Shown: in pieces, positions 8,300 through 58,207 of the stretch
How the letters are laid out: each line of letters begins with the position of its first letter
Position numbering within the stretch: position 1 is the stretch's first letter
DNA from: Gekko japonicus
Lineage: Eukaryota
Length of the DNA stretch: 64,000 bases
Reading direction: 5' to 3'
Assembly (NCBI RefSeq): GCF_001447785.1
Contig: NW_015170912.1
Location: 186,001 to 250,000 of the forward strand
Notes under the pieces: model-generated
What the model saw: only the letters and a program-made list of their open reading frames with translations
Databases searched by the model: none
Told to the model about the DNA's origin: nothing
Made by a program: the position numbers and the translations under genes

Positions 8300-8578
8300 C
8301 CCAGTTTGGTGTAGTGGTTAAGTGCGCGGACTCTACTCTGGGAGAACCGGGTTTGATTCCCCACTCCTCCACTTGCACCTGGCTGGATGACCTTGGGCAA
8401 GCCGTAGTTCTGATAAGAGCTGTTCTTGAATAAGAGCAGTTTCTGTCAGAGCTCTCTCAGCCTCACCTACCTCACAGGGTGTCTGTTGTGAGGAGGGGAA
8501 GGGAAAGGAGTTTGTAAGCCGCTCTGAGACACCTTTGGGTAGTGAAGGGCAGGGTATAAATCCAATCTCTTCTTCTTC
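8300..8578 (+). mobile_element. tRNA-derived SINE (Squam3-like)
   Basis: A-box-like TGGTGTAGTGG, B-box-like GGTTTGATTCC, (TTC)n tail; nearly identical to 53318-53601. Confidence 0.8.
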
Positions 8579-8830
8579 CCACACCTACACAGCCCTTTGG
8601 TTCATTAAACTGAAGTCTGTATGGGGGAAGAGCCTATTTTTCTATCCACATTGGGTAGAAAAGAGTCAGAGAGCCTTTTGTTTGCATCTGAGGGCCAAAG
8701 AAAATCAAGTCAGGTATACAGTAGTGAAGGGATCTCTGGGATTAGTGCATATTCTGGCAGCCAAACAGGGAACCTAAAGAGGCAGAGGAAGCCCTCAGAT
8801 CTTCACCAACTCTACAGAGCTATATAAATT

Positions 8831-9104
8831 TGTTGTGTATGCTGGCCGCCACCGGGGGCCAGCGTTCTACCTGAGCTTGAGTTCTAAGGGACAATAGGGA
8901 CTAGGCTCCTAGTCCCTCCACTGGGGAACCAATGGGAACCATGGCGGGAGATTCAAACCCACCAATGGTGACCAGGGGTGTGTCCCCAGGTGTGTATATA
9001 GTTGGCCTGCCGGCCGTTTGTCTGCATGTTCAGTCTGTACTAATAAAGTGTGCTATGCACCACGTCGTAGTATGTCGTTCCTCCATGCGGCAACCCACTA
9101 CACA
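8831..9104 (+). mobile_element. Probable solo LTR
   Basis: TGTTGTG...CACTACA(CA) ends, TATA at ~8995, AATAAA at 9042. No clean TSD. Confidence 0.45.
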
Positions 9105-9475
9105 ATAAAATTCATCATATTCTCTGCCACTATGATCCATGAAATCTATCCTTGATGACAAAGAATTTGCTAAATTAGGTCTGGGCAAAATGCACCAGCC
9201 TGTTGGTGAGTCCAAATGTGAGATTCATTATATGGCACTACAAGCAGAAATCAAATCCTCTTCAGAAAGACTCCATCCATGTCTCTGATGATTCCAGTAG
9301 TACAGACGGATAGGTCAAATTTTATTAAATATAGAAAAAGTTATGCTTGAAGGGCTTCACCATGAGTTTAACAAGCTCATAAAACTGAGGCGTTCCTCAC
9401 TGTTTGTTTCATTTCACTTTCAGGTACCAGTTTGGAATCCCCCTTTTGGTCTGTATGTTTAATGGTACAATTCTT

Positions 9476-10229
9476 TTTTTTTTTATAACTTTATTTTCAT
9501 TTTCATAAAATACAACAATCCACAATCCATACGTCTTTCTTATTGCTATGGAGCCCTATCCACGTGCATTAATCCAATCCTGTATGTTTAATGGTACAAT
9601 TCTTTTTTTTTTTATAACTTTATTTTCATTTTCATAAAATACAACAATCCACAATCCATACGTCTTTCTTATTAAGGAGCCCTATCCACGTGCATTAATC
9701 CAATCATATATGAAGGATAAGGCTTAATTTGTCCATCTCTGCCAAATCAAGTATTTTATGTATTAATTCTTCTTGTTTAGGGATATACTCTTGATTCCAA
9801 AACCTAGCTAACAGCATTCTTGCAAAAGTGAGTATATATATGATCATATATTTATCTTTTAACTTGTAATTAACCGGCAACATATTCAATAGTACAATTT
9901 TCGGAGTCAGATCAATTTTAACACTAGTTATTCCCAAGATTATTCTTTGTATCATCTTCCAATAGTCCTGTACTTTTGTACATCGCCACCACATATGAAA
10001 GAAAGTACCGACATTATTATTGCATTTCCAGCAGTTTCTGGGGAGAGACGGGTTACATTTAGCTAACCTTTCTGGAGACCAGTACCATCTGTGGTATACT
10101 TTATATATATTTTCCTTATAATTCGTACTTCTTGTGTAGTTTAACGCTTTCCAGGTTTTTTTCCAGCCTTCTACCGTTATGTTATGCCCAATATCTTTTA
10201 CCCAGCTTTCCATTACCTTATTAGGGTAA
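9476..10229 (-). mobile_element. 5'-truncated L1 (ORF2 C-terminal cysteine-rich domain) with duplicated 3' junction
   Basis: ORF HRWYWSPERL...CWKCNNNVGTFFHMWWRC; polyA (T run); 16-bp TSD TAATGGTACAATTCTT at 9460, 9589 and 10230. Confidence 0.85.
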
Positions 10230-11029
10230 TAATGGTACAATTCTTATTGTTTTTGGTTGTATAACTACAGGGGTGATGTTTAAAGATATATCAAAGACCA
10301 CATCTGATTTTTCTTGTTGCACCTATATCCATGCTTTTTCATGAAAAGGATAGTCACATCAACTGGTGCTCAAATACACTACAATATTTGCAGTTTCATC
10401 TTTTGTATTCAATTTAATCTCTCATCTTTTTTATCACAGACAAAATGTCTGTGAAGGTACTAGAAATCTTGAATCCCATATCTCTTTGCTCCTCTTCAAA
10501 ACCCAAAATGATGCTTCCTTTGTACCTACTGGATACTTCCATAACAATTTTGTAACAAGTTTTTATAGCACCACAATGACAACAATTTTTATTTTTGATT
10601 GATCGTGACAAGCAACGGCACAACTCTTTTCTCCAGTTATTTTAATGCCTTTAGTTTTCAGGATGTGTACAAAAAAACTTGAACTTTTAGAGCAAATTGA
10701 CCTTTTTTAAAAAAAATAAGTCCTGAGTCTTTTTTTATAAGTTTATTTGTACGTTTTCCAGAAGTCCTGAGTCTTGATGGTGTCCCTAAAGCTCATATAT
10801 GAAATTGTTTCTCCTTTAACTAAAACATGTGACTGTTTCTCTAAAATCAGGTTTCTTACCAGAAGATTCAAATGCTGCCAAATATAAAGATTACTTTTAA
10901 AAAGAGATCTATAAGGAATTCAGGAAGTCACAGACAAATCAACCCAGTTTCTGCAATAGATAACACATATGGAATGCAAAAAGGGGTGTGTGTGTTAAGG
11001 TTAATGTTAAAGAGCTCCACCAACACCAA

Positions 11030-11420
11030 ATAGCATTAATGTTGTTTAATGCTCATAAATGTATTGAATCAGGGCTGAACAATAAGGTATGCAAGTTTGC
11101 TGATAATACCAAATCAGTCAGGATAGTAAAATCTAAAACGAATTGTGAGGACCAAAAGGGTGACTGGTCAGTGCAGATACAAATGTGATGGAATATAAGT
11201 AAGACCAAAACAAATCTCTTGTTCTCTTTCTTGTGTGTATGTCCATGTTCATGTGTGCATGCACAACTGCACATATTAAATTTGTTCTAGGTTGGTTGTT
11301 AACTACAAAGGAAAAAGATCTTGCGGGCGTAGTGAAAATCTCACTGAAGACATTAAGTCTACTGTTATTTTTTTGTAAGGCAATTAGGAATGACTAGGAA
11401 AGAGGCTCAGAATAAAACAA
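11030..11420 (+). mobile_element. Old CR1 ORF2 fragment
   Basis: LFN...ESGLNNKVCKFADNTK (RT FADD motif) and a GAAAAAGATCTTG..GT CR1 motif. Confidence 0.55.
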
Positions 11421-11774
11421 TAGCATAATATTATATTATCATATATTCTAACAGCTAACTTTACCCCAATCTGCAGATAGTTAAATCCAAAGAACAAGGC
11501 CAGATGAAGAGAAAGGATGTTTTTCTACAAACCTGGGGGAACCACTAGGTTTGCAAGGGGAAAAGACCTACCAAAAATTGATAGGAGGCTTTCAATCCCC
11601 CTGCAAAAATACTCTCAGCACCTCACAGAACTGCTATTGGGCTGAGGTGGTGAGGCAGAAACACCGAGGGTGAAAGAGCAGGCAGGGTGGTGGTGGAGAG
11701 AAATGCCACCACCAGCACCACCACCACGAGCCTAACCATCAGTTTCTCTCCTCACCAGCCTCTGAAACACCCTC

Positions 11775-11775
<1 letters not shown>

Positions 11776-11813
<38 letters not shown>
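11776..11813. repeat. (CTG)12 microsatellite
   Basis: Perfect trinucleotide run. Confidence 0.95.
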
Positions 11814-11814
<1 letters not shown>

Positions 11815-11963
11815 GTGCTGGGTGCTGGGCAGCCTTGTCCCATTGCTGGGTTGCAAGAGAATGGTACAGGCTCCTGCGAGAAATCAGATGGCAACAGGAC
11901 TGTCTGGAGGTGAAGTCTCCTCTCCTGCATCCTTACCCACTCCAGAGGGTCCTGTGAGGCCGC

Positions 11964-12631
11964 TGTATGAGTCTGGGGTCAGCCTCCCCTGTCGTTTCAC
12001 CTTGAGGGTGAGCTAATTCAGACCTCCAGACAAGTAGCGAGATCCTCTCCTCTCGAGTAGGTCTCCTGTCCCTGGGTTCTCCTCCCGGGATGAAAGGAAG
12101 CTCTCACTGATTGCACCGTCCCACACACTTGCTTTCTCCAAAAGTCAACATATCTTTATTTAAGAGGAGCAAAGATAAAAAAAACACAGCTCCAGAGATA
12201 AAAACACCAGGATAAATAATAATATTCACAAAGACTTAAAACACTGAGGCAATGTGCTGAGTGGCTGAAGGAGTAGTTCTCAAGCCGCTAGAATGGAGAC
12301 GGTCCTGAGCAGAGTGCTGGGAAGTTAGTTATTCTCAACAGAAGGCTGGCAAGGCTACAAGCAGGAGAAAGGAGAATGAAAAGTCTTTTATCAAAGAGCC
12401 ACCTTGGTGGAAGAAAACTTGCTTTTCTCTCCTGAACTGTTGTCTCTGTTCCACTGCCGGCTTGGTCAGTAACGGTGCCTCAATTAGCTACAGCTGCTGC
12501 TTGAACAATTGCCAAGTTTTTGCTTGAACAACTGCCAAGTTTTCTTATATCCTCCCTACAAGGCCCGGATGGTATTTCGCTTCAGAGCCTTAAGGGGGAC
12601 ACACCACAATACCAAATAATACTTCCATACA
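11964..12631 (-). repeat. 3' LTR of the Gmr1-like element (668 bp)
   Basis: 6-bp inverted ends TGTATG/CATACA; G7 PPT adjacent (plus-strand C run 12632-12638); TATA-like element ~12545; AATAAA (plus-strand TTTATT 12155); 23-bp tandem duplication at 12498-12543 in U3. Confidence 0.85.
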
Positions 12632-12804
12632 CCCCCCCACGCAGAAAGCGAGTGACTTAGGTCATTCGCCTTTCTGCGATCAGAACAATGCCTTTGCTGC
12701 ATATATTAAAATCATCTAACAACATACATACAAACCCGCAGTTACATATACATATTCAACTGTAGCCCATAACCTCAAAATCAGCAAAGATGCTCAGCCA
12801 TTTA

Positions 12805-15800
12805 CTATAAATCAGCATGACACCGTGAAAGGGAATCTGCTAGAGTGTTATCCCTCCCTCTAATATGGGTAACTTCGAAAGACATATCTTGCAGAGATAG
12901 TGCCCACCTCAAGATTCTAGAGTTGGTATCCTTCATTCTGTGTATGAATGTTATTGGGCTATGATCTGTCTCTAGACAAAAATGTGTTCCCCTGAGATAT
13001 GTCTTCAATTTGTTTAGCCCCCACACTACCCCCAGAGCTTCTTGCTCCACGACACTATACTTTTGCTCTCTAGGGAGTAACTTTCGACTCAGATAGATCA
13101 CTGGATGGAAACATCCATCGGACTCTTTTTGCATCAGGACGGCCCCTATGCCCGTTCTGCTAGCATCGGTCCTGACCAAGAAAGGCTTAGTATAGTCAGG
13201 TGGCCTAAGGATAGGTGCTTGAACAAGTTTCTCTTTTAGAAGTTCAAAAGCCCGTTGACATTCTGATGACCATGGTACTTTTGCGGGAACGTTTTTCTTA
13301 CATAGGTCAGTTAAGACCGCTGCTAGTCCACTAAAATTAGGGATGAATCTTCTATAAAACCCACAGGCCCCTAGGAAACTCAAAATCTGCTTCTTTGTCA
13401 TGGGAGTGGGCCAGTTAACGATTGCATCTATCTTTACCGCATGTGGTGAAATTTTCCCACCCCCTATTTGGTGGCCCAGGTATATAACAGAAGAGTTGGC
13501 AACTTGACACTTTGATGGCTTTATGGTCAAACCGGCATCTTGAATTCTCTGAAGCACAGTTCTCAGATGTTGTAGATGTTCCTGCCAGTTTGAACTGATG
13601 ACTGCAATATCGTCCTGATATGCTACTGCGTAGTCCAGTCCTCGAAGTATCTTATCCATCAGCCTTTGGAAAGCTTTGCTAGCTGACTTCACTCCAAATG
13701 GGAGTACATTAAAACAATACTGACCCATAAAACAAGAGAAGGAACTTCTTTCTTTAGCTCTCTCTGTAAGTGGCACTTGCCAGTATCCTGAAGTGAGGTC
13801 AAAAGTGGAGATGTATGTTGCACTAGCCAGTCTTTCTATCACTTCCTCAATGTATGGTGAAGGGTACTGGTCCATCTTACTTATCTTGTTGAGTTTTCTA
13901 TAATCAACACACATGCGATATTGAGTTGGGTCATCTTCATTCAACTTCTTCTTGGTAACAATGACAAGATTGCTAGACCACTCAGAAGTGCATGGCTCTA
14001 TTACTCCCATTTGTAGCATTTTTTCTATTTCTGTCTTGATTATTTCCCTCATAGGCCCCCTCACAGGATACGGATTGGACTTAACTGGTGGATGGTCTCC
14101 TGTGTCTATATCATGGACAACTAGGGAGGTTCTTCCAGGACAGTTGGTAAATGTGCTTTCAAATTTTTTCAACAGCTCCCTTAGTTGTTCTTGCTGTTGG
14201 CATGACAGGGCCTCATTGATGGGGATCTCAGACATTCCAGTTGGCCTTTCTGCTTCTGCAAGAAGATCAGGAACATCAAAGTCCTCTTCTGGCCAGGCCT
14301 CAATTGACATTTGCTGCATTTGACGGGCAACAAATTTTTTTAAGCGGTTAATGTGGGCTACTAGAAGGCCTCTCTCTGGATCTTTAATCTCATAGTTTCC
14401 ATCTCCAAGGCTCTGCATAACTTCGAAAGGTCCCGTCCAATGTACATCTAACTTTCCCACACTCCCAGGGTTCAACAATAGGGCCCACTCTCCCGTCTTC
14501 AGGGTTCTAGATTTAGTTGTTTTGTCAAAATTTGTTTTTTGTTTTTCCCTGGTTTCTGTGAGGGCTTGCTGAGCAGTCTGTTGTATACTTTGTAAAGTCT
14601 GCTGTAGATTGGTGAAATATTCTGATGTCGACTGTGGTACTTCAGGAGCCCAGACTCCTTCCCAGCTTGCCCTCAGTAACTCAATGATTCCTGGCAGTTT
14701 CCTGCCAAACACAAGTTCATTGGGCGTGAAGCCGCCAAGCGAAGGATGCACAGCATCTCTGTACGCACTAACCACAAATGGAACCGCCTCATCCCAATTT
14801 CCGTGATGTTCCAAGCAGAAGGCTTTTAGCATCCGTGTCAGAGTTCCTCCCCACTTTTCTATCTGCCCATGAGATTGTGGGTGATAGGCTACACTGAGTT
14901 GTTGAGTCACTCCTGCCAAATCGTAGAGTTTTTGCATAAGGTTATTTAGATGATCTATCACTGACAATAACTCTCGGAAAACCAAAATTTGCAAAAAACT
15001 CTAACAATGTTCTAGCGACATTTGTTGCAGTAACAGTCCTTAGTGGAATAGCTGCTGGAAAACAAGTTGCCCGGTCTATGATAACAAGAATGAATTTCTT
15101 TCCTGACCTTGTAGGGGGGAAGGGTCCCTGAATGTCCATCTGTATTTCTGCAAAAGGTACTTGCACGATTGGGATCCTTCCTAGTGGCACCTTTACATGA
15201 TCAGATGAGTATCCTACCTTCTGGCATACTTCGCAGGAATTAACATAATCTTTAATGTCTTTACTTATTCCAGGCCAATAAAACGCCGCAGTCACCTTGG
15301 CAAGGGTTCTTTTGAACCCAAGATGCCCAGACAATGGCAGGTCATGGGCAGATCGTAAAACTTCTCCCCTGAAGAGTTTAGGGACCACTAATTGCTTCAC
15401 TGACTGTGACATGGCTGTCTTTCCTTTTGGTAGGTATTCTCTATAAAGGAAACCATTATGCCAATAAATCCTACTGTTTCCAGGTTTCTCCAATGAGGGA
15501 CTCATTTTTCCAGCTGCCTCTCTACATGACTGTAAATCTGGCGATGTCTCTAACAATTCCTTAAAGACTTTAGAATCAGTTTTCATGGATAGCGTCCCAC
15601 TTCCAGTTATAGGAGGAAATTGAACATCATGAGCTAGAGGCTGTAAGACTCCTCCCCCTGTTCCTTGCTCTTCCTCTTCCTCTTCCTGCTGTTGGACTCC
15701 CAGTGGGGGGCTTTCTTTCTGCTGTCCTATTGGCAGCATCTTTCTAGCTCTTGCTGTACTCCTGGTCAGTACTGGAAACTGGTTAATGCAACCTTTTGCT

Positions 15801-16270
15801 TTTAGCATTTTAAAATAAACATCCATCCCAAGTAAAAAGGCGGGATCATCTCCCTGATGTACCAATAATGGGATGGTGTCGGTCCAATTCTCTATAGTAA
15901 CCTTAGCATAGGTAACAGGTTGCTCTTTGGGCTGGGCATCATACGTACGAATATCTACTTTCCCATCTGGTTGTAACCCTAATTCCTGGAAGGTAGTTTC
16001 ACAAATGGATGACATGTCCGCCCCACTATCCCATGTAGCTTTGAGGAGGGCCCTATCTTGTATTCTCACATAAACTGTCCTTTTTTGAGAACACCACTCC
16101 GCTTGTTCTTGACTAATGTAGCATGAAATGGACCTTTTAGGGACAGAAGTCAGATTTATGCGATTTATTCTGGCTCCATTTCTTAGGCCCTGACTCTGTT
16201 GTTGGTTATTAAATTGTACTTCTCTAGCAGGCCAATTTTTACCCCGCCCAGAGTTTTGCATACATACCAT
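12805..16270 (-). pseudogene. Gypsy pol polyprotein PR-INT-RT-RH, frameshifted in the integrase core (~14945-14960)
   Basis: Two long ORFs (14942-16270 and 12805-14994) join at SDR../NNLMQ; otherwise no stops. Confidence 0.88.
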
Positions 16271-17170
16271 CAGAGTCTGATGTACTTCTTTGGCTGGAGC
16301 AGCTGATGCTGTATCTTGAAGCTATATTTGTTGTTGATCTTGACTTGCTGACGACGTTACTGCTTGAGTTGTAATTAGTTGAACATTTGGTTGCTGTGAT
16401 ACATTTTTCTCCACTAGTCTCGGGCATTGATTTCGAATGTGGCCTCGTTGCTTACAGAAGTAACAGACTGGTGGCGCTGATGTATAGCTGGTAGACCCTC
16501 TATGTTCCTGAATACGATCTCTTACTTGATTTGGATGGCGTTGCCTAAAAGTTGGAGCTGGTTGTCTTTGCTGATATTCCCCAGTCCTTGGATACCTTGG
16601 AATCCGATGTGACTGGTCTCCCATAGGCTTGGCACAGGGCATCTCCATCAGGCGGCCTTCTGCAGGTATTGCAAAAGCTGGGCAACCCTCAATGGTTGGT
16701 GCCAGTGTCCTCCTTCCACCATAGGGGTGCAACAAGCTAGTGAGGGGGCTGGGCAGACAAGGCTGGGTGGACAGACTGGAGGTGCCCTGGCTAGGAAGCT
16801 GGGCAGGGCTGGTGGGAGGGCAGGCTGGGGAAAACAGGCCATGAAAGACACCCCCCCATGCAGCTGCAGACAGGTCCCATGGGCCAGGGACAATTCACCA
16901 GCAGCCAGGATCCAAGGAGAGAAATGAGTTGGGGTAGGGGAGAGAGAAAGCAAGAAATAGTGATGGGATGGGGAGGAAGAGAGAGAGAGAAAGAGACAAT
17001 AGATGTGGGGGGATGGAGAAAGAGAAAAACAGAGGGAGACAAAGTAAGAGAAGGAGTGGGGGAAGAGAAGAAGAGTAAGACAGAAAAGGGGTGGTGAGAG
17101 AGGGGAATAAGCAAAGGTGGGGGGATGGGAGGGCTACTTCTGCACTTGTATATTCTAATAGCCAAGTTGG

Positions 17171-17560
17171 TAGGGTTGCCAGCCCCTGGGTGGGAGTGGG
17201 GGAATCTTACGATTTGGTGGACTCCTGCCCATCGCTGGCCAGCTGGGGGAAGCTCCACTCCCAACAACCACGACCCAGCGTGACATCCCCAATGTGATGA
17301 CATCGCTCGGAAAAGATGTCATCACGCTGGGGACATCGTGTAGTGATGCTCTGGTATTTTGGGCAAAACTCTATGATAACCATAAAGTTTTGCCCAAAAT
17401 ACCACAGCGTCACTGCACAATGTTCCTGGAGTGATTATGTCAGTTCTGTGTGACATCTTCACATCGGGGACATCACGCATGCTGGCATTACCCCACCCCC
17501 CACTCCTGGAGAGCTCCCTTCCACCCACTGCTGGTGTAAGGTAAGGACCTGGCAACCCTA
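17171..17560. mobile_element. hAT MITE with perfect 8-bp TSD
   Basis: TIR TAGGGTTGCCAG / CTGGCAACCCTA; TSD CAAGTTGG; internally palindromic. Confidence 0.9.
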
Positions 17561-18348
17561 CAAGTTGGCCAAATCTGAGGGTACTTAAAACAGGAGAATG
17601 GACCTCTGAACGGGCAAGACAAATCTTTCTACAAACCTGAAAAACACCCTAGGTTTCCAGAAAAATCTGAAACCTAAAAAAATGGCATGTTTTTTTTTAA
17701 AAAATACACCAAAATGATAAAAGGAACATGTATAGAAATATTGATTTCTAAAGGTTTCATGTCTTCCCCTGGAATGTCCCTTGCTGATACCCTGCTGGGT
17801 TGATTTCCTATTGAAGCCATATGGCCTCGATAGCCCTGCCATATAACCCTCCATTCTTCACACTTCCATGCTGGCAGAAGACCAGATGGCCCTAGCAAAC
17901 AGGCAAAGACACACGTACCGCTATGGGGTGGTTGGAATTTGGGGACCACATGACTGCAGGTGTGGCCTTCAAGAGTACTGACCATTCAGATGTTGTCCCC
18001 ATGGCAACCCAACAATTGGACACTCCCATGTCTACTCCAATTGGCCCCTGGCCAGGGCTAATTGGGGGACTGGGATTGCCCTATATCTGTTCATTCCCAA
18101 TGAGAGGAACTCTCTCTCTCTTCTGTTCCTGTTATCTCTGCTACTCTGTGTGCTGTCCACCTGAAATGCTGTCCTGCCATGTGGTCTCTGGCAGAGACAA
18201 AGAACTGCTTTGGAGCTGAGCACATGGCTGCATGCTTGCAAAGATGGACTTCTTGCTCCAAACCTCTTGGGGCTACTGGATTATTACAAATGGACTATTC
18301 TGGACTGATAACTGTTCCTGACTTGGTAAATATGCATCTCTAATGTGT

Positions 18349-18581
18349 CCTGCCAAACCTAGCAGTTCGAAAGCAAGAAATTGCAAGTAGATAAATAGGT
18401 ACCACTTCGGTGGGAAGGTAACAGCGTTCCGTGCGCCTTGGTGTTTAGTCATGCCGGCCACATGACCACGGAAACGTCTTCAGACAGCGCTGGCTCTTCG
18501 GCTTTGAAACGGAGATGAGCACCGCAACCCTAGAGTCGGACTCGACTGGCTTTCAAGCAAGGGAACCTTTACCTTTACCTT
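18349..18581 (+). mobile_element. Sauria SINE, 5'-truncated
   Basis: (ACCTTT)n tail; TSD TAATGTGT. Confidence 0.85.
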
Positions 18582-20263
18582 TAATGTGTAGTTAAGGCAA
18601 AACATTGCCTAGCCTTTGTTATTTTTAAATCCTTCTAGTCTGTGCTAAGTTCTATACTGAATAAACTTATTCTGGTTTTCTAGCTTGTCTGGTTTGATAT
18701 GTAACTGAATCCCAAGCCTAGATCTTGTAGCCTAACCCGCTGACCATATACACTACCTAGGTAAAAGTTTGCACCTCTGAGTAGAGTTGCTAATGTGTAA
18801 AACCCACATGCCAACTGAGATTCTGGGATCTCTAACCTCAGGCTGGTGAGGGATTAAGTAGAGATCCTGGTGGCTATAGTGTTCTGAAATCCAGAGAGCC
18901 TACCTTTCTGGGTTATTGTGTAATGTATTGAGCCAGTGTAGAGTTTTCCCCCTCATCCCTGGACTGGCCTGGGGGGGCAGAATCTATACAGAACACTTGT
19001 AGCTTTATTTAGCTTCCCTCAGTGGATATTGCTAGGCAACCACAAGAGGCTTGGATTCTCTCAGTAAAAGGCAGGGGGAGGGTGCCTTTTTCAGAGATAT
19101 TTTGGGCTTTGAGGGAGGACTTATTGGGGCAAAGCCTGGCAGGAACCACCAGACAACTTGCTACCACCCAACTTTCATGACTTACCTAGGCCTGACTGCT
19201 TGCTACTGTTCAGCAGCAGCCCCGGCACAAACATCACTGTGGTGTAGCGGTTAGAGCTTCAGACTAGGACCTTGAATTCCCATTATGCTGTGGAAACTCA
19301 CTGGCTGATCCTGAACCAGCTCCACATGCTCAGCCTAATATACCTTACAGGCAGTGGGGAATTGCCATTGAGAGCACCTGGATGGCTCCTGGTGGGCCAA
19401 TGGCCTCCCACCCATACCCGGGCTGGCCAGCTCTCTGACGGAAGGGCTGAACCTGACCCACCCAAGCCCCATACAAGGTGGCAGAGATGGCTCTCAGCCA
19501 GCCTGAGGCAAGGTAGGGAGACAGAGCCCGGGTCCCCAGGCCCCAAGAAGCAAGGCAGCGGAGGAGGTGGCGACACCCGACTCAGACTGCTTGAGGCAAG
19601 GCAGATGTTGGTACACCACCAACCCTCATGCAACCCAGACTCTGGCACCCAGCCCAGTCAAGCCCTGTGCAAGGCAATACAGATGGTGGCACCTGGGCCA
19701 AACTCTGCACTAGGTGAGGCAGACAGTAGTGCCCAGCCTGGTCAAGTCCCACATGAGGCAAGGCAGACCATGCCCACCTGGCTGAGCCCTGCATGATGCA
19801 AGGCAGACAGAGGCGTCTGGCTGAGCTCTGCACAAGGTGAGGTAAGGTGAAGAAGATGGCCTGTGCGAGGTGAGGCCAGGCAGACAGCACTGTCCAGCAC
19901 AGCCAAGCACCATGTGAGTGAGGCAGATAGCAGTGCCTGGCCCAGCCAAGCTCCATGCAAGGACTATAGTTTTCCTAGGTAGAGGGTGCCAGGGTAGAGA
20001 AAGTTGGAAAAGAGAGGATGGACAGGAGATAAAGATAGGTTGGTTGTTGGCAGATGGGAATGAGAGAAGGAGGCAGGAAAGGGGGAGAGGGGAAATAAGA
20101 TTTACTCTGCAGATCCTTTCAGGTTAACACTAGTAAATCTATATCACCAGCAATTATTCAGAAAGATTCACCGTGATATTGTAAAAGAATTCATTGACGT
20201 ACTGATATATATTTTTGCATTTTGGAGTATACTCCAAAATCAGCATTTTCATTCACTATATTT

Positions 20264-23651: not shown

Positions 23652-23807
23652 NNNNNNNNNNNNNNNNNNNNNNNNNNNNNNNNNNNNNNNNNNNNNNNNN
23701 NNNNNNNNNNNNNNNNNNNNNNNNNNNNNNNNNNNNNNNNNNNNNNNNNNNNNNNNNNNNNNNNNNNNNNNNNNNNNNNNNNNNNNNNNNNNNNNNNNNN
23801 NNNNNNN
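23652..23807. other. Assembly gap
   Basis: N run. Confidence 1.
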
Positions 23808-24871: not shown

Positions 24872-26105
24872 TGTCAGCTATGTTGCCATGGGGGTTGGGG
24901 AGCTCGGTCTGTGTCTGGTTAATTGCTACTGCATTCCTTTCTGTGCTTTTCCTGCTTTGCGCCGAAATGCTTATCTATACAGATGTGCAGGAGGGAGATG
25001 TATTGTCTGGGTTTTTCCTAGGTGCTGTGGGAGAGTGTTGGTTCTCAGCTTTAGCTACCTGTCTCCAAGCTTTATCCCGCGTGCAGGAGGGTGCCTAATT
25101 GGCCAGTGCGCTGGGGGGGGGGGTTGCATACGAATACCCTATATCCTATTATACCCATGGGGCCGCCGCCATTCTTAGCAGTGCTTATGTTACTGCATCT
25201 ATAGCTCTGCAATAAAAGCATTACCATTCCTGAATGCGTGTACTTTGTTGTTGGCTGTGGGTTCTGACATTCTGTTAAGAATCCTCCATTCTCTATCTCC
25301 GCGCATCTCTCCGAAATCGAGATGAGTGACGGAGAGGAAAAACCAATTCCTGAGAAGGACGACTCCGGGGGGGGGGTCCCAACCCCTACCACGACCGGTG
25401 AGGGGACCCCCACGACCCTGTCGATTGTGCCGGTGACTACCACGCTGCTGGTAACTGCAGTTGACGCAGGAGCCGTTCCTAAGACGACATCGACCCTGGT
25501 GTTTCTGACCCCGACAGGGCCGAGGCAGCTGCCCGGCCATGGTTACCGGCAAAGCTCCAACTGGAGCCAGTTTCACCCGGACTCTACTGCAAAGATTTAT
25601 ATGCTCACGCAGGGGCCACCGAGAGACAGCCGATTTGACCGGGGATTTTCCACTGTAGGGAGGTTTCCCCCCTTTGGGGCCCCATTTGAGACGTTGCCCG
25701 GGGCATGGGTGACAGAGAGGACGAAGGCGAGAAGTGGCCATGTGTCCCCGGAGGAGGAACTGGAACTGGCCCAGAGGATGGAGGTGGCAGATCGAGAGAG
25801 AAGGCAACTGCAGCGGACTTTGGAGAACATCATCCAGGCAATCCCACAGCAGGTAATCCAAGCCATCAGGGAGGAGAGGGAGGCCCAACTGGCGGTCCCA
25901 GCAGGGCAGGTTGCCCCTCCGGCCCCGCCGCCGCAGCTGCCCCGGCCTGATGACGCCCCACAACCGGGCCTGCCCGATGTACCAGTTCCAGCGCCACGTC
26001 CTGGCAGTCTGAGAGAACGGACGATACCCCGCCTGAAAGACCGCATTGAAGGCACCTTTGATGGGAACCCGGAGGAACTCTCCTACTTCATGGAGAGTTT
26101 CCTTC
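24872..26105 (+). mobile_element. Tf1/sushi-type Gypsy retrotransposon: 5' LTR (24872-25269), self-priming PBS and truncated gag
   Basis: TGTCAG...CTGACA LTR with TATA ~25140-25153 and AATAAA at 25211. PBS 25272-25282 is complementary to 25171-25181. gag ORF from 25322 has a coiled coil and the FDGNPEELSYF capsid-start motif. Confidence 0.85.
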
Positions 26106-26230: not shown

Positions 26231-28294
26231 TCTTGCAGATAGGTGTTTTTTTTTCTGTTTCCACCTATCATAATTTCCACCAATAATTGTTTCAGTGACT
26301 TAGGAAGTGGGCATTCTTCATTTGGGGAGGGGGCTGTGGCTTAGTGTGCATTTTTCATAAGCTGTGCCTTTCCCCAAGCTCCCTCTTCATCTGAACAAAG
26401 TTTGCCCTACAGGGCAAATAGTGGGCTGATTTACATTAGGAAATTAAGCACAGGACAGAGAGGAAGGGTTAAGCACCAGAGCCCTAGTAAAGATTTCCTA
26501 CCTACACTGGTTTCTATTTGTCGAAGTTTAACAAAGTTTAATATCTTCTTTCATTTGGCCCTTGGGCAAAAAAACCCAAACACAATGTGCATTCTTTATA
26601 CTAAACATATTACAGAGAAATATTTTCTATTGAAACACACAAGATTCTCTTCAATCCACTATATTTAGGGTACTGATTTTTATAACAACTTTCTCAATGA
26701 ATATCGTGACAAAAGACATAATTTTTATCTACATATATGCAGCAAAGAACAGAACATGAAGCCAATAATAAAGACACTATGACAAAGTTCTTTTAGCTTT
26801 ATAGTAGGTTATAGTCATCATAGAAAATTAAGTATCTCAAAACTAATAGTAGAGAAACATATTTTCTTTCCCAATTTAAAAAAAATCATGTTATTGCTTC
26901 TTACAGTCCTTCTGAAAGAGTTTCATGAGCTTCTTCCTACAGATTTTTGAAAAAGAACAATGCTGTCTCTTGCCACTGTGTCACCTTACTTTATTAAACA
27001 TCAGAGCGTTTTGCTGGCTTTAAAAAGTCCTATTCTAAACTACATTTGATTATACCTATCCACTTAATGCTTTTGTCTTCACTATCAGAGGCTTTAATTT
27101 TATTAAAACAGTTTAAATAGGATTTGGGCATATGATGCCATTATCAATAGAAGCCTTGACTACTTTGTTACTGTCGCTGATCATTTCTTTTGGTTTCTGA
27201 CTTAGCAGATATCCTGCACATGTCAGGAGCTCACACAGAGGTCTCAACCTCTCATTTTTCTCATAAGACAGCCACATTCACACAAGTATGAGTATCTGTG
27301 AGCCAGGTGAACATTCAGTGTTAAATCATACCCACAGCACAAGAGTCATACATATGGGAAACATGTGAAGATTAGTTCCAGTATAATAGAAGAATATGCT
27401 GCCTAATTACTTAATGGATTGCCATTTCTAAATTCTGTCTGTATTCTGACATTTTATCAAGCAGATAAAACATACAAGCACGATAGGGTTGCCAGTTCCG
27501 CCTTGCCCACTGGCAGGAGATTGGGGGGGGGGTAGGGCTGTCAATTCCAGGTTGGAAAATACCTGGAGTTTTGGGGATGGATCCCGGGGAGATCAGGAAC
27601 CTCAGTGGGGTACAATGCCAGTCCACCCTCCAAAGTATCCATTTTCTCCAGGGAACATTTTCTCCCAATATCCAGCCATCAGCACCCCATTCTCACCCAT
27701 CTTCGAGTTGGAATTATTTGGCACCGGGGAAAGTTTGGTCTTAATGGATGTCAGCAGTTTCACTCCACATTTCTGGATGTCTGATCAATCCATCGTGCTC
27801 TCAAGCCATTTGGGAAGCCTGATTGCACACTTCTATCTTCGTGCTATTTTAAGAATTCAGTTAGTGATGTGCATATAAGTGGATCTTTGCCCCAGGGTTG
27901 TGAATCACCGCTTGTACATTTCTGCACCCAAACATTCTGTCAGGATCGGGAGCCCCCAGGTGAGTTATTTTTCAGTGAAAAATCCCCCCCAACCCCTCTC
28001 TCCTGTTTCTTGGGGTTGGAAAGATGGTGAAAATAGTCCCTAGTTAGGTTCCTATATCTGGAGACAACCTGGGGAGGCTGGCATCCCTAATTCAGGGAGA
28101 CTTGGGTAAAGCTGGAAAAATTTAAAAATCCAGGCAGCCTTGCTTCTGAGAAAACTTGGGCTGAACATCTGCCCCAAAAGGGCTTTCTGGGCATGGACCT
28201 TGGCTAAAGTGTGTGTGTTTGTGTGTGTGTATGTTAACTAGACTACAGAGATCAGTTCCCCTGGAAAAAATGAATGCTTTGGAAGGTGGACTGA

Positions 28295-28654
28295 TGTCAG
28301 GTAGCCCTGTCATAGGTCTGGAATGTGGAGGGGCGCCCTCCCGTTTTCTGTCTCAGTTCTCCCTGGCTCACCAACTGTTTGCTATCTTATGCTTGACCTT
28401 GTAGATGCTCCAGCTGCACTTTTAGTCAGCTGGGAAAGTTAACGGCTTTTGCTTTGCCTACTTGCTTTGTCCACGTGCGTGATATGTATCCATTGGCTCA
28501 TACAGGGGGATGTTTGATTCTAGTATAAGTCAGAGGCCCTAGTATTGGCGGCCATTCCTGACACAAGCTGTACACGTGTCTCTAGTACTGGATTTACCAA
28601 TAAACAGTTATCTTCTCATGAAGCCCTGTGTTGTGTAACCTAAGGACCCTGACA
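28295..28654 (+). mobile_element. Solo LTR nested in a hAT-like repeat
   Basis: TGTCAGG...CCTGACA ends; ACTGA/ACTGT TSD; TATAAG ~28524; AATAAA at 28599. The host repeat GGAAGGTGGACTG|TATGGCATT resumes afterwards. Confidence 0.75.
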
Positions 28655-29539
28655 ACTGTATGGCATTTTACCACACTGAGATCCCTGTCCTCCCCAGACT
28701 CCACCCCCAAATCTCCAGGATTTTCCCAGCCTGGAGCTGGCAACCCTACTCCTCGTCTCATTTTTCCCCATGCAAAATATTTTCTGCTTCAGAGTTGCTG
28801 TTTGAGAGCATCCCATGATTGACACATGAGTAAATGTACTGAAGTCAATAGGGCTACTGTCATGTAAGTATGCATTCCAAGAAAGAGAGGCAGAGCACAG
28901 GAGGCTGAGAGGGGCTGCAGTACTTGGCAAAGGGACCATGGAGTTGTCCAAATGGAGTGGTTCTTTGAAGGAGTGCTTCTGCACATTTATTTTATTTATT
29001 TATTTATTTAACTTTCAACTTGCTACCCCCCCAAACCCCCCCCCGGGGGTCTCTGAGCGGCTACAGTTAACCATTATCCCTTACCTAGGGCCACATGTAT
29101 GCTGGGGTGGGGACTGTCCTAACAGCACCCAGTGGAGGGACGTTCTGGATCGGCTCGTCGGCTCGTCGACACAGCTTCTTCTGGCTTCTACCTCTTTCTG
29201 TCCCTCCATGTCACAAGTGTGAAAGACAATTTTTAAAAAGGATGCCACCTGGCCACCCACTCCATGGTTACCGTGCAGCAATAATTTGAATGGTCAACCA
29301 CGGAGTGAGCGTGCGGTGAGGCAGGTTAAGGGTGGCATGTTTGGACAAACCTCTCCGAAACAAATAACACCGGATAAAATAGAGGCATGACCAGACCATG
29401 CCAAGCCTGTCATCTGACCGCAGCCTCAAAGTGCCATCCTATGTACCCTTCTAAGCCCACTGACTTCAATGGGCACAAACGGGTGAAATTCTACTTTGGA
29501 TTACAGTGTGATTGATTAATTGCTACCTGTGATAGATTC

Positions 29540-32733: not shown

Positions 32734-32872
32734 NNNNNNNNNNNNNNNNNNNNNNNNNNNNNNNNNNNNNNNNNNNNNNNNNNNNNNNNNNNNNNNNNNN
32801 NNNNNNNNNNNNNNNNNNNNNNNNNNNNNNNNNNNNNNNNNNNNNNNNNNNNNNNNNNNNNNNNNNNNNNNN
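32734..32872. other. Assembly gap
   Basis: N run. Confidence 1.
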
Positions 32873-33099: not shown

Positions 33100-34899
33100 T
33101 TATTGTTTTTTTTTACAAACTACAAACTATAACTGAAAATATAGGGAGGGGGACTACATCTAAGGAGAAACAAAAATAACACACACCTAACTAAAAACCC
33201 AAGAGTAGGAGATCAATACATCAGCTTGTCTCAATGCTATTTTAGAAAGCTAATAATGCAATGAACATAGTCGGTTATGCTAGGTTAATTATTGTTTAAC
33301 CATCCCTTTAACTGTTTAAAGAAATCCCCTGAGCATCCCAAAGTTATTTCAACATTTTTTCAGGCACAAATCAGAGTCCTTCAGCCCTTATTTATTCTTA
33401 TATTTTCTAATCCTCAGTTTACATGAACTTCTGGGGGCAGCCGCCCCCTTTTCAGAGAGGGAGTCCTCATCCGAAGACACCGAGCCTAACTCGCCATCAG
33501 ATTTGCTTTCTTCTTCCTTTTTGTCCTCAGCTGGTTCCCCAAGCTGTGTTCGCAGAAAGCCACGTGCTTTAAAAACAGAGTCAATCTTTTTTTTTTAATC
33601 GTGGAGTTTGAAAATGACACATTCTGGAATTAGCCATCTGTAATTGATGCCATTTGTTTGTAAGAAAAGGATTAATTCTTTATAGTTCTTTTTCTTCTGT
33701 CTTATGTCAAACGGAATGTCTTTTAAAATCCTATGTTGTTGTCCCCAATTTTCAAGGGTGTTCCTGTATTTGCTTTCAAGATAGCATCTCTCACATGTCT
33801 CTTCGAGAATCTGACTACTATTTCCCCAGGCAGATTATTTTTCTTGACGTATGAGGAATAGGACCTGTAGACCACATCCATCTCGCTGTAGAGGTATTCT
33901 GCTGTCCAATCTGTCATTGGGGCTATTGCTTCACTCAGCCATTGCTTCAGATTCTCTCCTCTAATTTCCAGGACCCCTTGAAACCATAGGACCAAATTTG
34001 CTTTCTCCATTTGCAGCTGTAAAAGTTTTGACTCTTCTATAGCTTGCTTCATTTCCAGCGTTTGCACCTTTTTCTTAACTTTTTTAGTATTGGCGTCGAT
34101 TTCCTTCACCTTCTCTCCCATTTGCTCTGTTGCTTTTAAAGATTGAGTAAATTGTAACTGCTGTGAAGCCAAGCTCTGACCAATTGTTGACAGTTGTTGT
34201 TTGATACTAGTCATCTCATCCAGCAGAGGGTGCAAGGAATCAGCCAACAGTTTTGAGAGCTCAGTAGTCTCTTCCGTTCGAGGACTACCCACTAGTTTCG
34301 GTTTCAACAGCTTTTCTTTCTCCGGTTTCTTCCCCACCATCTTTTTGGATTTGTTTACTTTTCAACAAGTTGCTAAAGTCTCTGATATTCGCCCAAACGC
34401 TTATCTGCACTCTGGTAAGTCTCTTAAAACAGATTTAAATGCTTATTTTTCCGCTCCCCCCTTTTTTTGTTTGCATTTTGTCTATGCGTTTGGGAGGGAC
34501 CTCTCCCCCGCTCACTTTCTTGTCGCTCTTTAAGGAGGGGGCAGCTTTCTTTTTAAATCTTCATGCTTGCTTCAACCCGACTCACAGTTCGTTGTTGGCC
34601 AACCGGCCTCATTTGGCATCGTTTTTTTCCACCCAATCTCCAACCTTGTCCCAGTCAGCAGCACTCGTACCATGCGGTCACTCAGCGGCAGGACCTTTGG
34701 GGTGGAGGAGCACCTCAATTCTCTGGCATCATGCCATCGAAGAGGTCACCCCTCAAAAGCCCCCTAGCTAGGAGCCTTTTACCAAGGCTCCGGGGGGGTC
34801 GCGACCCGTTGCGCCCCCTCCTACATGCTGGTGTGCAGTTTGCATCCCCGGGGCATCTGGGAAATGGGTCTGCCTGTGTGTCGCCATAAACCAGAAGCC
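33100..34899 (-). mobile_element. L1-type 5'UTR plus ORF1 (no ORF2)
   Basis: ORF 33723-34340: coiled coil, then NLVLWFQGVLE..ENL..DVVYR..PGEIVVRF..RDAIL (ORF1p RRM-like). The 5' end GGCTTCTGGTTTATGGCG carries a YY1-like ATGGCG. Confidence 0.75.
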
Positions 34900-41743: not shown

Positions 41744-42989
41744 ATCAACAATAGATCCAGATGAGTATTGTAATACAGGATGCTAAAGATGACCCTTCCC
41801 ATCTTATTCATTAAAATATATATTTATTTATTCCAAATACTTATATGCCCATCTTTCTCCTGAGCAACTCAGGACCCCTTCTATACCCCTATTAGTCCTG
41901 GTTAGATTTGCCACCTTTTTTGGCCCTGATCCCGTGCCTCTTTAGCACCACATTGACATAGAAATCTGTTTATCTTCATGCCAAGCAAAGTTTCACCTGC
42001 TTAGTTCCTCCATGTTTAGCTGCCATTAAAGGCAGATCAGGAAAGTGTCAACTTCATTTATAACCTAGTACAGGTACCTCTATATCAGATCTCCTCAATG
42101 GGATGGGTAACCTTGCTGCTTCCAGCCAAAAGCAAAACAAAAGATCTGAAGCTCCATAGAGAGAAGTAAACAAAATATGTATTAAATATTCATTGCACTT
42201 TTCATGCAAGATCAGAGCTAAAACTAATAATGCCATGTTAAGCAGACAATTGACTTCAATGACATATAAATGTCTAGATTCCGGTACTTGGGAGCATTGT
42301 AATTCATGCCTTCACAGTCAGTTCAGCTTCACTATAGGCTTGCTAGGAAGGTGGCCAATACACAGAGGAAATTGTGATGAAACAAGACTGCCAGCTTGGC
42401 TTTGATAGTAGTGGGATGAAATCTGGGAGGGATGCAAGGTGAATGCTACTGCAGAAGTCACAACATGTGGAGGTCCTGTACTATTTCAACACAGCACTCC
42501 CTGTGAGAGCAGATTACATTACTGATGCTTAGAACCTTGGCTGTAGTGCTGAAGTCACAAGTGTGGCTGCTATGCTTCAAATAAGCAACATAAAGTTCCT
42601 TTGGCAACAGATTTCAGGTGTCAAACTGGTTGCTTTAAAATAGATGTGCAGAACATAACCCACCCCACTTAATGAAGATTGTGTAGGAAGTCAAGATCTG
42701 GTGCTTCTGAACAATGTTGAAGCAGCACTTATTTTATCCCCCCCTCTGGTACATATACCAATGCAGACAGTCCACAGGGCCATCCAATCATGCACACAAT
42801 CTCCCTGCATTTTGAAATGGGAGGAAATTAAGCAAATGAAGCAACCAAACATTCTGCGGAGAGCACTCATTTTTAAAGGTGTAATAAAGACCTTCAAAAA
42901 TCATGTTGATATATTTACAGGTGTCATTCAAAAGACTACCTGTGGGACAAATCTCCACTCACTATTTAGAGTAAATTAGTTAGTGTCAG

Positions 42990-43479
42990 GAATCTCACTC
43001 CCAGTCGTTGTGGGGACGGTTTTCTCCTCTTCTTCGCTCATCTCAGCGGGAGAGATGCGTGAAGGAGGGAAAGGTAGATTCCTAACAGAATGTCAGGACC
43101 CACAGTCAAACAACGGAGCACACACTTCCAAGAAGGTTATACTTTATTGTTAGAACTATGGTTGCAGGAACATGTTCACTGTTAGGAATAACTAATACAT
43201 TGGCAAGCATCAAGAGGTATAGTGCATTCAAACTAACCCCCCCTCCCACCGGTGGGCCAATCGGTCTGACTCCCGTGGACGGGAAGGAAACCCCAGAACA
43301 GTTAGAGCCTGGGAAACGAAACTAGTCCCACGGTTAATTAATGGGGAGGCACTACATAGGCAAGACTACAAGGTCAGAGATAATGAAGGAAGAAGCAGGG
43401 AAAGGAATGTGGCATCCACTGGTACACAGGTCATGCATGCGAACCTGCAGCTATAAACAATATGGCAGCCTAGCTGACA
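42990..43479 (-). mobile_element. Second Tf1/sushi-type element: LTR (43091-43479), self-priming PBS and first gag codons
   Basis: TGTCAG/CTGACA ends. On the minus strand the LTR starts TGTCAGCTAGGCTGCCAT (vs TGTCAGCTATGTTGCCAT at 24872). gag starts MSEEEEKTVPTTTGSE at 43041 (vs MSDGEEKP..PTTTGEG). Confidence 0.85.
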
Positions 43480-49607: not shown

Positions 49608-55467
<5,860 letters not shown>

Positions 55468-55964: not shown

Positions 55965-57517
55965 GAAAGAGATCTTGGGGTTATAAGCAGATAGCTCAAT
56001 GAAAATGTCAGCCCATTTCACAGCAGTGAAAAGGGCAAATTCCATGCTGGGGATTAGTAGGAAAGCGATTAGGAATAAATGGGCAAATATTGTAATGCCC
56101 TTGTACAGAGCCATGAAGCTGCCTCATTTTGAATACTTTGTACAGATCTTGTTGCTGTATCTCAAAAAGAACATTGCAGAGCTGGAAAAAATATAGAAGA
56201 AGGCAACCAAGATGATCCAAGAGGTTGGAGCGCTTTTTGCTATGAGGAAAGGCCAGAGAGTCTGGGATTTCTAAGTTTAGAGAGAAGAAGGCTAGGGAGG
56301 GGACATGATAAAGGTTTATAAAATTATGCAGGGGGTGGAGAAAGTGGACAAAGGGAGATTTTTCTCCCTTTCCCATAATACTAGAACTCAGAGCACCCAA
56401 TGAAGTTGATGGGCGGTAGTTTGTGACAGAAAAAAGCCCTTATTTTCTCAATGAGTAATTAAATTATGGAATTCTCTGCCAGTGAAGGTAGTGATGGCCA
56501 TGTGCATAGATGGTTTTAAAAGGGGATTAAGCAGATTCATGGAGGATAGGCCTATTAGTGCCTATTAGGCATGGCTAGTAAGGGGAGCCACCATGTAAAC
56601 ATCTGAATACCAGTACTAGAAGCCAAAAAAGGAGGGGGGGAAGCCAGTGTACAATGCAGGAAACAAAAAAGAATAACACACAAGCAAGTAAGCAAGTATA
56701 TAATGATCAAATAAGCATAACAGCAAGTATAATATAAATCAAATAAACATAACAAGTATGATATAAATCAATAGGCCAAAGTGCAATAATAAATCATAAT
56801 AGAAGCAAGTCACAGTCTTTCCATGTGTCTACTCCAGCATAGAAGCAATATCAAAGTCCAAATTGGAGTGCAATTCATCAAATTTTCTGAGCCATAAAAA
56901 GCCGACGCGTAATCCAGATGCCTGTTGCCGCATTTCGATTAATTCTTATTCAAGCATGGCTGTAATGGGACCCAGTCTCAAAAGCTGGCATACCCCCACC
57001 TGGACCAGGGGGCTGGCAACTCTATGCAAAAAGTGTAACCAGCCCCCCATAAAAGCTCTCCATTACAGCCATGCTTGAATAAGAATTAATCGAAATGCGG
57101 CAACAGGCATCCGGATTACGCGGCGGCTTTTTATGGCTCAGAAAATTTGATGAATTGCACTCCAATTTGGACTTTGATATTGCTTCTATGCTGGAGTAGA
57201 CACATGGAAAGACTGTGACTTGCTTCTATTATGATTTATTATTGCACTTTGGCCTATTGATTTATATCATACTTGTTATGTTTATTTGATTTATATTATA
57301 CTTGCTGTTATGCTTATTTGATCATTATATACTTGCTTACTTGCTTGTGCGTTATTATTTTTTGCCAGTGGTGTTCTTTTTTGTTTCCTACCAGTACTAG
57401 AAGACAACATCAGGGGGGGAGGTCTTGGCCTCTGTGCTCTGACTGCTGGCCCTCCAGTGCAACAGGATGCTGGCCTAGATGGACTGGTCTGATCCATCAG
57501 GGCATTTCTTATGTTCT
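55965..57517 (+). mobile_element. CR1 LINE 3' fragment interrupted by the insertion at 56623-57388
   Basis: AVKRANSMLGI..IVMPLYRAM..PHFEYFVQ..ELEK; the 3' UTR resumes at 57404 and ends CTGATCCATCAGGGCATTTCTTATGTTCT. Confidence 0.85.
56623..57388. repeat. TSD-flanked insertion: ~310-bp inverted repeat (56658-56968 / 57060-57389) with a locally templated spacer; possibly Penelope-derived
   Basis: 15-bp direct repeat TACCAGTACTAGAAG at 56608 and 57389; near-identical inverted arms; 56992-57063 is the reverse complement of 57850-57921. Confidence 0.9.
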
Positions 57518-57888
57518 AGAGATGGTCCACAAATTCAATTACTTTTTTGGAGCAGCAAAATGCAGAAGTCAGATTTTCCAACATAAACAGCTATGCTATC
57601 CACAATGGGACTTTGACTCTCTTATAATTCAAATCCTGCTAAAAATGAAAGTTTAATGGCATCCAATGCAGAGATGACTTAAGTCTGGAATAATGGAATG
57701 TAGGCAGCAAGATTTTTTGAGTGCTTGGGGTCTCTGAATTTATTAAACTCCTGGGAACTTTTCAGTAGCTTATGGATGTGATATGTACCAAATTGGAGCA
57801 GCTGGACCCTACGGTAGATTTACTCTATGGAGCTGGACTATTAACATCCATGGAGAGCTTTTATGGGGGGCTGGTTACACTTTTTGCA

Positions 57889-58207
57889 TAGAATTGCCAG
57901 CCCCCTGGTCCAGGTGGGGGTTCCCCCGCTTTTGTAGGCCCCTCCCTGCCTGCAAATGCCCCGGAAAGTGACGTGATGACGTCACCCGAAAGTGACATAA
58001 TCACACCACCAACATCACATGGCAATGCTCTAGTTTTGGGGCAAAACTCTATGGTAAATTTGGGCTCAAAACATAGAGCTTTGCCCAAAAACTAGAGCAT
58101 TGTTGTGTGATGTCGGCAATGTGATGACGTCACTTCTGGGTGACGTCATCACTCACACGTGGCAGAAGATCCCCCTGCTGAGAAGAAGGTAGGATCTGGC
58201 AACCCTA
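57889..58207. mobile_element. hAT MITE (TAGGGTTGCCA family)
   Basis: TAGAATTGCCAG...CTGGCAACCCTA ends; TSD TTTTTGCA / TTGTTGCA; internal TGACGTCA repeats. Confidence 0.8.

What the first reader, a model, noticed from the sequence alone, without database searches (positions are those of the whole stretch)
43078..43189. Compensatory change between two self-priming LTR elements in one window
Seen: the related minus-strand element has PBS CTGTTAGGAAT (43078-43088) and R start ATTCCTAACAG (43179-43189), a perfect 11-bp match. Compared with the 24.9-kb element, position 5 changes T>C together with its partner A>G, and position 8 is G-U in one and A-U in the other, although the LTR bodies are otherwise very divergent. 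Inference: the pairing rather than the sequence is under selection, supporting self-priming. The solo LTR at 28295 also has GCCATTCCTGACA after its TATA.
Basis: partly seen in the sequence, partly recalled or inferred. Interest (0 to 1): 0.75.

Follow-up and report, generated by a model that had tools for sequence, protein, structure and literature searches.

The report
Self-priming signature in lizard retrotransposons
Two broken copies of a jumping gene, likely from a gecko-type lizard, each carry 11 bases after their terminal repeat that are complementary to the predicted start of their own RNA, so they likely start copying themselves without a host tRNA, a mechanism already described for a known group of such elements.

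Summary
Both elements are truncated front ends: 5' LTR, TT, an 11-nt PBS, then a gag-like ORF. Each PBS pairs with a segment 31-32 nt after TATA and 99 nt from the LTR end (shuffles: 1 of 3000 for each). No TGG tRNA site follows either LTR.

The single compensatory change is weak alone (about 9-10% by chance), and the LTRs are relatives (253 of 365 aligned columns identical). Stronger support lies outside the finding. The R-U5-PBS region is predicted to fold as the same long rod in both copies (z -3.6, -5.9). All 24 outer pairs are kept, including a second two-sided change outside the primer duplex.

This matches Tf1/sushi-type self-priming, already reported for vertebrates. Clade membership is not shown: no RT survives, and the gag could not be classified. 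The start site and family-wide covariation could not be tested. The scan noted self-priming signatures before on other DNA (39 notes, at least 13 genomes). Verdict: real, probably a new member of a known kind.

The parts
43091..43479 (-). Element B 5' LTR, 389 bp, TGTCAGC...CCTGACA
43218..43221 (-). TATA motif, 32 nt before the predicted R start of B
43179..43189 (-). Predicted self-primer of B (R +1 to +11); start site inferred, not mapped
43143..43148 (-). AATAAA of B, first three bases predicted paired inside the rod
43090..43173 (-). Predicted inner rod of B: helix 2 (R+17-21 with the LTR end), helix 3 (R+29-36 with U5), inner helices
43078..43088 (-). PBS of B, 2 nt (TT) after the LTR, perfect complement of R +1 to +11
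42976..43041 (-). Start of gag-like ORF of B, 21 codons then a stop; the element appears cut off about here
   Evidence: 12 of 20 identical to the gag-like part of P0002
24872..25269 (+). Element A 5' LTR, 398 bp
   Evidence: very deep coverage in run X1
25140..25143 (+). TATA motif 31 nt before the predicted R start of A (a second TATA lies at -21)
25171..25181 (+). Predicted self-primer of A
25211..25216 (+). AATAAA of A, predicted paired inside the rod
25272..25282 (+). PBS of A, 10 WC pairs plus 1 G-U with R +1 to +11
25322..26097 (+). Truncated gag-like ORF of A (about 258 codons; gag by position, not by a family hit); no pol, no 3' LTR
   Evidence: unique flank resumes at 26098 in runs X1, X10, X16
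28295..28654 (+). Solo LTR C, 360 bp, more distant relative; 5-bp flanking repeat matching 4 of 5; no PBS follows; R-like start at 28554
   Evidence: joints that skip it, e.g. 28292 to 28661

Best explanation
These are two truncated 5' ends of related LTR retrotransposon families, likely of the Ty3/gypsy Tf1/sushi type, whose RNA is predicted to fold so that its first 11 bases pair with the PBS and would then be cut off to prime reverse transcription in place of a tRNA. Shown in sequence: LTR, TT spacer, PBS complementary to the segment after TATA, no TGG site, downstream ORF. Predicted: transcription starts at that A; R-U5 folds into a rod that brings the 5' end onto the PBS, leaving a 5-nt loop after base 11. 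Inferred from Tf1: RNase H cuts between bases 11 and 12 and RT extends the freed 3' end. The differences between A and B are best read as drift under a constraint to keep the fold, the position-5 change likely passing through a U-G pair.
For: Complementarity beyond chance at 2 of 2 LTR-PBS junctions. Same geometry in both: TATA at -31/-32, R-U5 99 nt, duplex of 11, the length reported for Tf1 (PMC7175516, passages). No TGG in the 20 nt after either LTR. Sense-strand fold z -3.58 and -5.87, 0 of 200 shuffles each; antisense z -0.99 and -2.15. Of 24 pairs in three outer helices, all are kept, 2 with two-sided and 2 with one-sided changes; slid controls pair 33-48%. With the fold taken from one copy only: B's 24 outer pairs all remain possible in A (1 of 3000 neutral mutants do as well), and 26 of A's 28 in B (20 of 3000); without the primer duplex, 13 of 13 (66 of 3000). 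Helix 2 fits one of the two extra duplexes described for Tf1/sushi leaders (bioRxiv 2022.12.06.519325, passages). Self-priming is reported for the group in vertebrates (PMC6317226, PMC4600332, passages) and chromoviruses occur in reptile genomes (PMC3670739, passages). LTR ends fit the Sushi motifs TGTYANR/CNTNACA: C at both ends, B at the 3' end, the other three ends at 6 of 7 (PMC3601003).
Against: No RT or integrase survives, and the ORF hit no gag family: Pfam, PDB sequences (52, 81), ESM Atlas (49, 79) and folds on a weak model, pTM 0.32 (84, 89, 90), all gave nothing usable. The start site is unmapped; the RNA run showed no pile-up of read ends. Only two junctions were compared. Whole-fold retention is not significant (396 and 614 of 3000), nor are A's outer pairs without the primer duplex (429 of 3000). 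The third duplex, leader against LTR, is no better than shuffled leaders (163 and 498 of 2000). Solo LTR C does not fold better than shuffles (z -0.05). Half-tRNA priming was not tested.
Confidence: 0.8

Rival explanations
1. Self-priming holds, but the position-5 covariation comes from copying, not from two selected changes: plus-strand synthesis copies the RNA primer and rewrites the PBS to match R.
For: In retroviruses the PBS derives from copying the primer (PMC5371799, PMC6088434, passages). About half of Tf1 cDNA keeps a PBS copy at its 3' end (PMC11042837, passage). The only PBS difference lies opposite an R difference. Solo C has C at R+5, and protein P0006 carries the same 8 residues as B's LTR-end/PBS frame, so B's state is likely the older one, and a C-to-U change in R would pass through a tolerated U-G pair.
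Against: In Ty1 and Ty3 the primer sequence is not inherited into the PBS (PMC5371799). A's G-U at position 8 is uncorrected, though it may be private to this copy. The two-sided change in helix 3 cannot come from primer copying.
Confidence: 0.3
2. The duplex is real, but this particular compensation is coincidence between two related sequences.
For: 9-10% chance under random placement; 114 of 500 shuffles reach the observed score; R +1 to +5 also fits an initiator pattern (CCATTCT, TTATTCC, CCATTCC; consensus recalled), which would limit position 5 to a pyrimidine.
Against: All 6 changed columns in the three outer helices keep pairing; cross-pairing B's R with A's PBS is predicted to drop to -7.2 from -11.4 and -13.8 kcal/mol.
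Confidence: 0.15
3. The rod serves RNA processing, hiding AAUAAA in the 5' LTR as the HIV-1 polyA hairpin does, and priming uses a tRNA half or another host RNA.
For: The first three bases of AAUAAA are predicted paired in A and B (unpaired probability 0.00-0.02) and in C (0.03-0.12); HIV-1 precedent (PMC2645353, abstract); copia uses a half-tRNA (PMC5371799).
Against: It does not explain why the best complement of the PBS in each LTR starts 31-32 nt after TATA and spans exactly 11 nt. The same hiding is predicted without the PBS, so the PBS is not needed for it. It may be a second role rather than an alternative.
Confidence: 0.08
4. The PBS-like segment is an echo of the LTR's terminal inverted repeat and pairs with the U5 end as a local hairpin.
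For: In B this hairpin is predicted at -8.8 kcal/mol.
Against: In A it falls to -3.6 while the R duplex stays at -11.4; pair probabilities for the R duplex are 0.61-0.98 in both.
Confidence: 0.04

Closest known systems
Tf1/Tf2 of Schizosaccharomyces pombe (self-primed Ty3/gypsy chromoviruses)
   Same: 11-nt segment at the predicted RNA 5' end complementary to a PBS just after the 5' LTR; extra duplex between PBS-adjacent sequence and R.
   Different: Priming and RNase H cleavage are shown for Tf1 and only inferred here; the third duplex is not supported here; clade not established.
[quoted passage not shown]
   Same: Vertebrate host, predicted self-priming, similar LTR end motifs, T-rich U3 (0.32-0.33 T), AATAAA 56-59 nt from the LTR end.
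   Different: No RT, integrase or chromodomain to compare; the named ORF relatives are gecko gene models only; no sushi sequence was available for direct comparison.
Other self-priming lineages predicted from sequence: plant Tcn1 (gypsy) and TAR/Houba/Osr-1 (copia)
   Same: Defined by the same test, a complement in the LTR to 10 or more bases just after it (PMC6317226).
   Different: Different hosts; TAR shows that the signature alone does not prove Tf1/sushi membership.
HIV-1 polyA hairpin
   Same: AAUAAA predicted inside a stem in R-U5.
   Different: Here it is part of a rod closed by the primer duplex; no functional evidence.

Membership tests
LTR retrotransposon | TG...CA LTR with TATA and poly(A) signal, followed by PBS and ORF | tested here: met
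   high-copy coverage and skip joints
Tf1/sushi group | PBS complementary to the element's own predicted 5' end | tested here: met
   11 of 11 paired in both elements
Tf1/sushi group | No standard tRNA PBS (TGG within 0-5 nt of the LTR) | tested here: met
   half-tRNA priming not tested
Tf1/sushi group | Self-primer begins at the true transcription start | tested here: inconclusive
   TATA spacing fits; RNA run gave no end pile-up and about equal depth on both strands
Tf1/sushi group | Three-duplex 'pretzel' leader | tested here: inconclusive
   central and upstream duplex predicted and conserved; downstream duplex no better than shuffles
Tf1/sushi group | RT/integrase phylogeny within the clade; chromodomain; PR-RT-RH-IN order | not testable with these tools
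   both copies end in gag; no genome held; no full-length relative found
Tf1/sushi group | Gag related to sushi/chromovirus capsid | tested here: inconclusive
   no significant hit; likeness of the FDGNP stretch to PEG10-type gag is recalled only
Tf1/sushi group | LTR end motifs TGTYANR / CNTNACA and 5-bp target duplication | tested here: inconclusive
   3 of 6 ends match fully and 3 at 6 of 7; 5-bp repeat at solo C, 4 of 5; these motifs resemble rGmr1's
Tf1/sushi group | RNase H cleavage after base 11 yields the primer | not testable with these tools
   biochemical step
Gmr1-like gypsy elements | Integrase before RT | not testable with these tools
   no pol; A's ORF has no similarity to the Gmr1-order element in this window

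The most novel reading that the evidence does not exclude
These lizard elements lie outside the Tf1/sushi clade (their gag has no detectable relative in any described family), so they are an independent origin of self-priming in amniotes, in which one R-U5 rod both delivers the primer and hides the 5' poly(A) signal, and the primer rewrites its own binding site in each cycle.
Probability: 0.1. Interest if true: 0.6.

Novelty: new member of a known kind. Interest (0 to 1): 0.25.

Why it matters
Self-priming is proven only in fission yeast and inferred elsewhere. A high-copy amniote lineage with several diverged families would give a natural covariation series for the whole leader fold. It could also show whether a self-primer's sequence is inherited into the PBS, as in retroviruses, or not, as in Ty1 and Ty3. 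The mechanism itself is known, so the gain is incremental unless RT places the lineage outside Tf1/sushi.

Tried and rejected
Genome-wide covariation could not be run: no genome is held. Pattern scans for the U5 end found 0 loci in viral contigs and 0 in metagenomes. Protein-based scans confirmed 0 of 133 and 0 of 11 candidate stretches. The read lay covered A and C only, not B. It listed 40 variant rows and hid 750, none of the listed ones in R or the PBS; loose ends were dominated by a flanking repeat, so the sequence after full-length C-type LTRs was not seen. No RNA holder was listed in the index, which is no evidence either way.

Gag classification failed by every route listed in the Against line; a search for long relatives of P0022's C-terminal stretch scored none of 120 candidates. 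Rfam found 2 tRNA-like matches at 52.4-52.6 kb and nothing on the LTRs. The inner helices of the rod differ in register between A and B under the MAFFT alignment (26 pairs shared of 44 and 40), so their apparent compensations were not counted. The U5-end hairpin was rejected. An idea that the ORF at 33723-34361 belongs to P0002's host gene failed (best E 0.46). Look-ups of earlier findings by place, by sequence and by lizard or vertebrate words were empty. Levin 1995 and Lin and Levin 1998 are not held. No search was aimed at showing that this gecko family is undescribed; repeat libraries were not available.

Full report
Observation. On the minus strand, 43088-43078 is CTGTTAGGAAT and 43189-43179 is ATTCCTAACAG. 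The plus-strand element has ATTCTTAGCAG at 25171-25181 and CTGTTAAGAAT at 25272-25282. LTR A spans 24872-25269, LTR B 43479-43091 and solo LTR C 28295-28654. In A and B the paired segment starts 31 and 32 nt after a TATA motif and 99 nt before the LTR end, the PBS follows a TT spacer, and the segment is the best complement of the PBS in its LTR. A perfect match to B's PBS arose in 1 of 3000 shuffled LTRs, and A's quality of match in 1 of 3000. The window-wide rate is 62 of 37,876 sites, 33 of them in inverted repeats at 57-58 kb.

What the elements are. Both are truncated front ends. A continues for about 258 codons, then unique flank resumes at 26098 in the same and two related species; B gives 21 codons before a stop. 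The only named relatives of A's ORF are gene models from Gekko japonicus and Gekko kuhli; 38 mostly short proteins match in the unnamed library. The host is therefore probably a gecko-type lizard (inference). In run X1, summed depth is 255,000-719,000 over LTR A, 7,900-19,200 over the ORF and about 60-100 over most of the unique flank; the tool warns that this is not a copy number, but it indicates a high-copy family. In the RNA run, LTR A has depth of about 100-300 on each strand and the ORF 2-12, with no pile-up of ends. I call the ORF gag from its position; no family, structure or fold search classified it.

How strong is the compensation? A and B are relatives: 253 of 365 aligned LTR columns match, and 67 of 86 in R12-U5. 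With two R changes and one PBS change placed at random, a Watson-Crick compensation arises in 9-10% of 200,000 trials, and the column shuffle gives 114 of 500. Alone, the finding is suggestive only. Paired columns are also more conserved than others (6 of 48 against 20 of 63, p 0.023), so sequence and pairing are both kept.

The 112-nt R-U5-PBS region is predicted to fold as one rod in both copies (z -3.58 and -5.87; antisense -0.99 and -2.15): primer duplex, 5-nt loop, helix 2 with the LTR end, helix 3 with U5, and inner helices holding AAUAAA. All 24 pairs of the three outer helices are kept, with a second two-sided change in helix 3. That set was chosen from both sequences, so I also took the fold from one copy only. 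B's 24 outer pairs all remain possible in A (1 of 3000 neutral mutants), and 26 of A's 28 in B (20 of 3000). Without the primer duplex the figures are 66 and 429 of 3000, and for the whole fold 614 and 396 of 3000. Without primer and PBS the fold z-scores are -1.53 and -2.66, and C's R-U5 is unremarkable at -0.05. Support is therefore strongest for the primer duplex and moderate for the next two helices.

Mechanism. In Tf1 the first 11 bases pair with the PBS and RNase H cuts between bases 11 and 12 (PMC7175516, passages). A three-duplex leader is required and is shared by other Tf1/sushi elements (bioRxiv 2022.12.06.519325, passages). Two of the three duplexes are predicted here; the leader-side duplex is no better than shuffles. 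Neither PBS region has TGG. I infer the same mechanism, at 0.8. For position 5, solo C and protein P0006 share B's state, and A's R on B's PBS is predicted at -11.1 kcal/mol, against -7.2 for the reverse. A path through a U-G pair is thus nearly free. Whether the second step was selection or primer copying is open: retroviruses inherit the primer sequence into the PBS and Ty1/Ty3 do not (PMC5371799, PMC6088434, passages), while Tf1 cDNA often carries a PBS copy at its 3' end (PMC11042837, passages). A's G-U at position 8 may be private to that copy, since 7 listed positions in its ORF differ from most or all laid sequences; this was not tested.

Comparison with what is known. Self-priming is described for Tf1/sushi elements of yeast and vertebrates and predicted for plant Tcn1 and TAR (PMC6317226, PMC4600332, passages). 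Chromoviruses, Gmr1, Barthez, Cigr2 and Mag lineages occur in reptile genomes (PMC3670739, passages). LTR motifs fit Sushi loosely (PMC3601003, passages). The HIV-1 polyA hairpin was seen as an abstract only (PMC2645353). Butler et al. 2001, Levin 1995 and 1996, Lin and Levin 1997 and 1998 and Atwood-Moore et al. 2006 were seen only as titles or as cited by those papers; that Levin tested the Tf1 duplex by mutation and rescue is recalled. No supplements were read; tables of self-primers in them may bear on how unusual these sequences are. Earlier scan notes report self-priming signatures in BEL/Pao and diatom copia elements (8 of 39 shown, unchecked), a reminder that the signature does not fix the clade.

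Verdict. The feature is real and works like Tf1/sushi self-priming; membership is likely but untested at the defining RT level. The compensatory change is true but weaker evidence than claimed, and the conserved leader fold adds more. New member of a known kind; interest 0.25.

Noticed in passing
window 12805-16894 (-): LTR-type element with zinc knuckle, protease, integrase, then RT and RNase H: the integrase-before-RT order described for Gmr1-like gypsy elements. No LTR pair was found by self-comparison; unrelated to A's ORF.
   Followed up: partly
window 56664-57364: Inverted repeat with 305-nt arms, 99% complementary, around a 91-nt spacer that recurs inverted at 57850-57934; a young foldback insertion or an assembly artefact.
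   Followed up: no
P0006: Predicted protein that reads through an LTR end and PBS in frame, with the same 8 residues as element B's frame: likely a third junction with B's PBS state.
   Followed up: partly
P0002 and P0011: Gene models in which this gag-like sequence is fused to host proteins (CCDC162-like in Gekko japonicus; an RNA polymerase large subunit); exonisation or annotation error.
   Followed up: no
window 28295-28654: Solo LTR C sits inside another high-copy repeat; many contigs and reads skip it at about 28292 to 28661. Its R start contains a copy of its own 7-nt LTR end.
   Followed up: partly
window 25193-25323: Run X16 (another species) has depth 965 in this U5-PBS bin and 0-12 over the rest of LTR A, suggesting related elements that conserve only this part.
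   Followed up: no
window 25211-25216, 43143-43148 and solo C: AAUAAA is predicted partly paired in all three LTRs, in A and B with a GU-rich U5 segment.
   Followed up: partly
window 51537-52178 (+); 52360-52431 and 52548-52619 (-): Mitochondrial-carrier-like coding stretch and two tRNA-like matches, probably SINE heads.
   Followed up: no
window 9451-9673: Two identical 94-nt copies 129 nt apart; possible assembly duplication. N runs lie at 3158-3675, 23652-23807 and 32734-32872.
   Followed up: no
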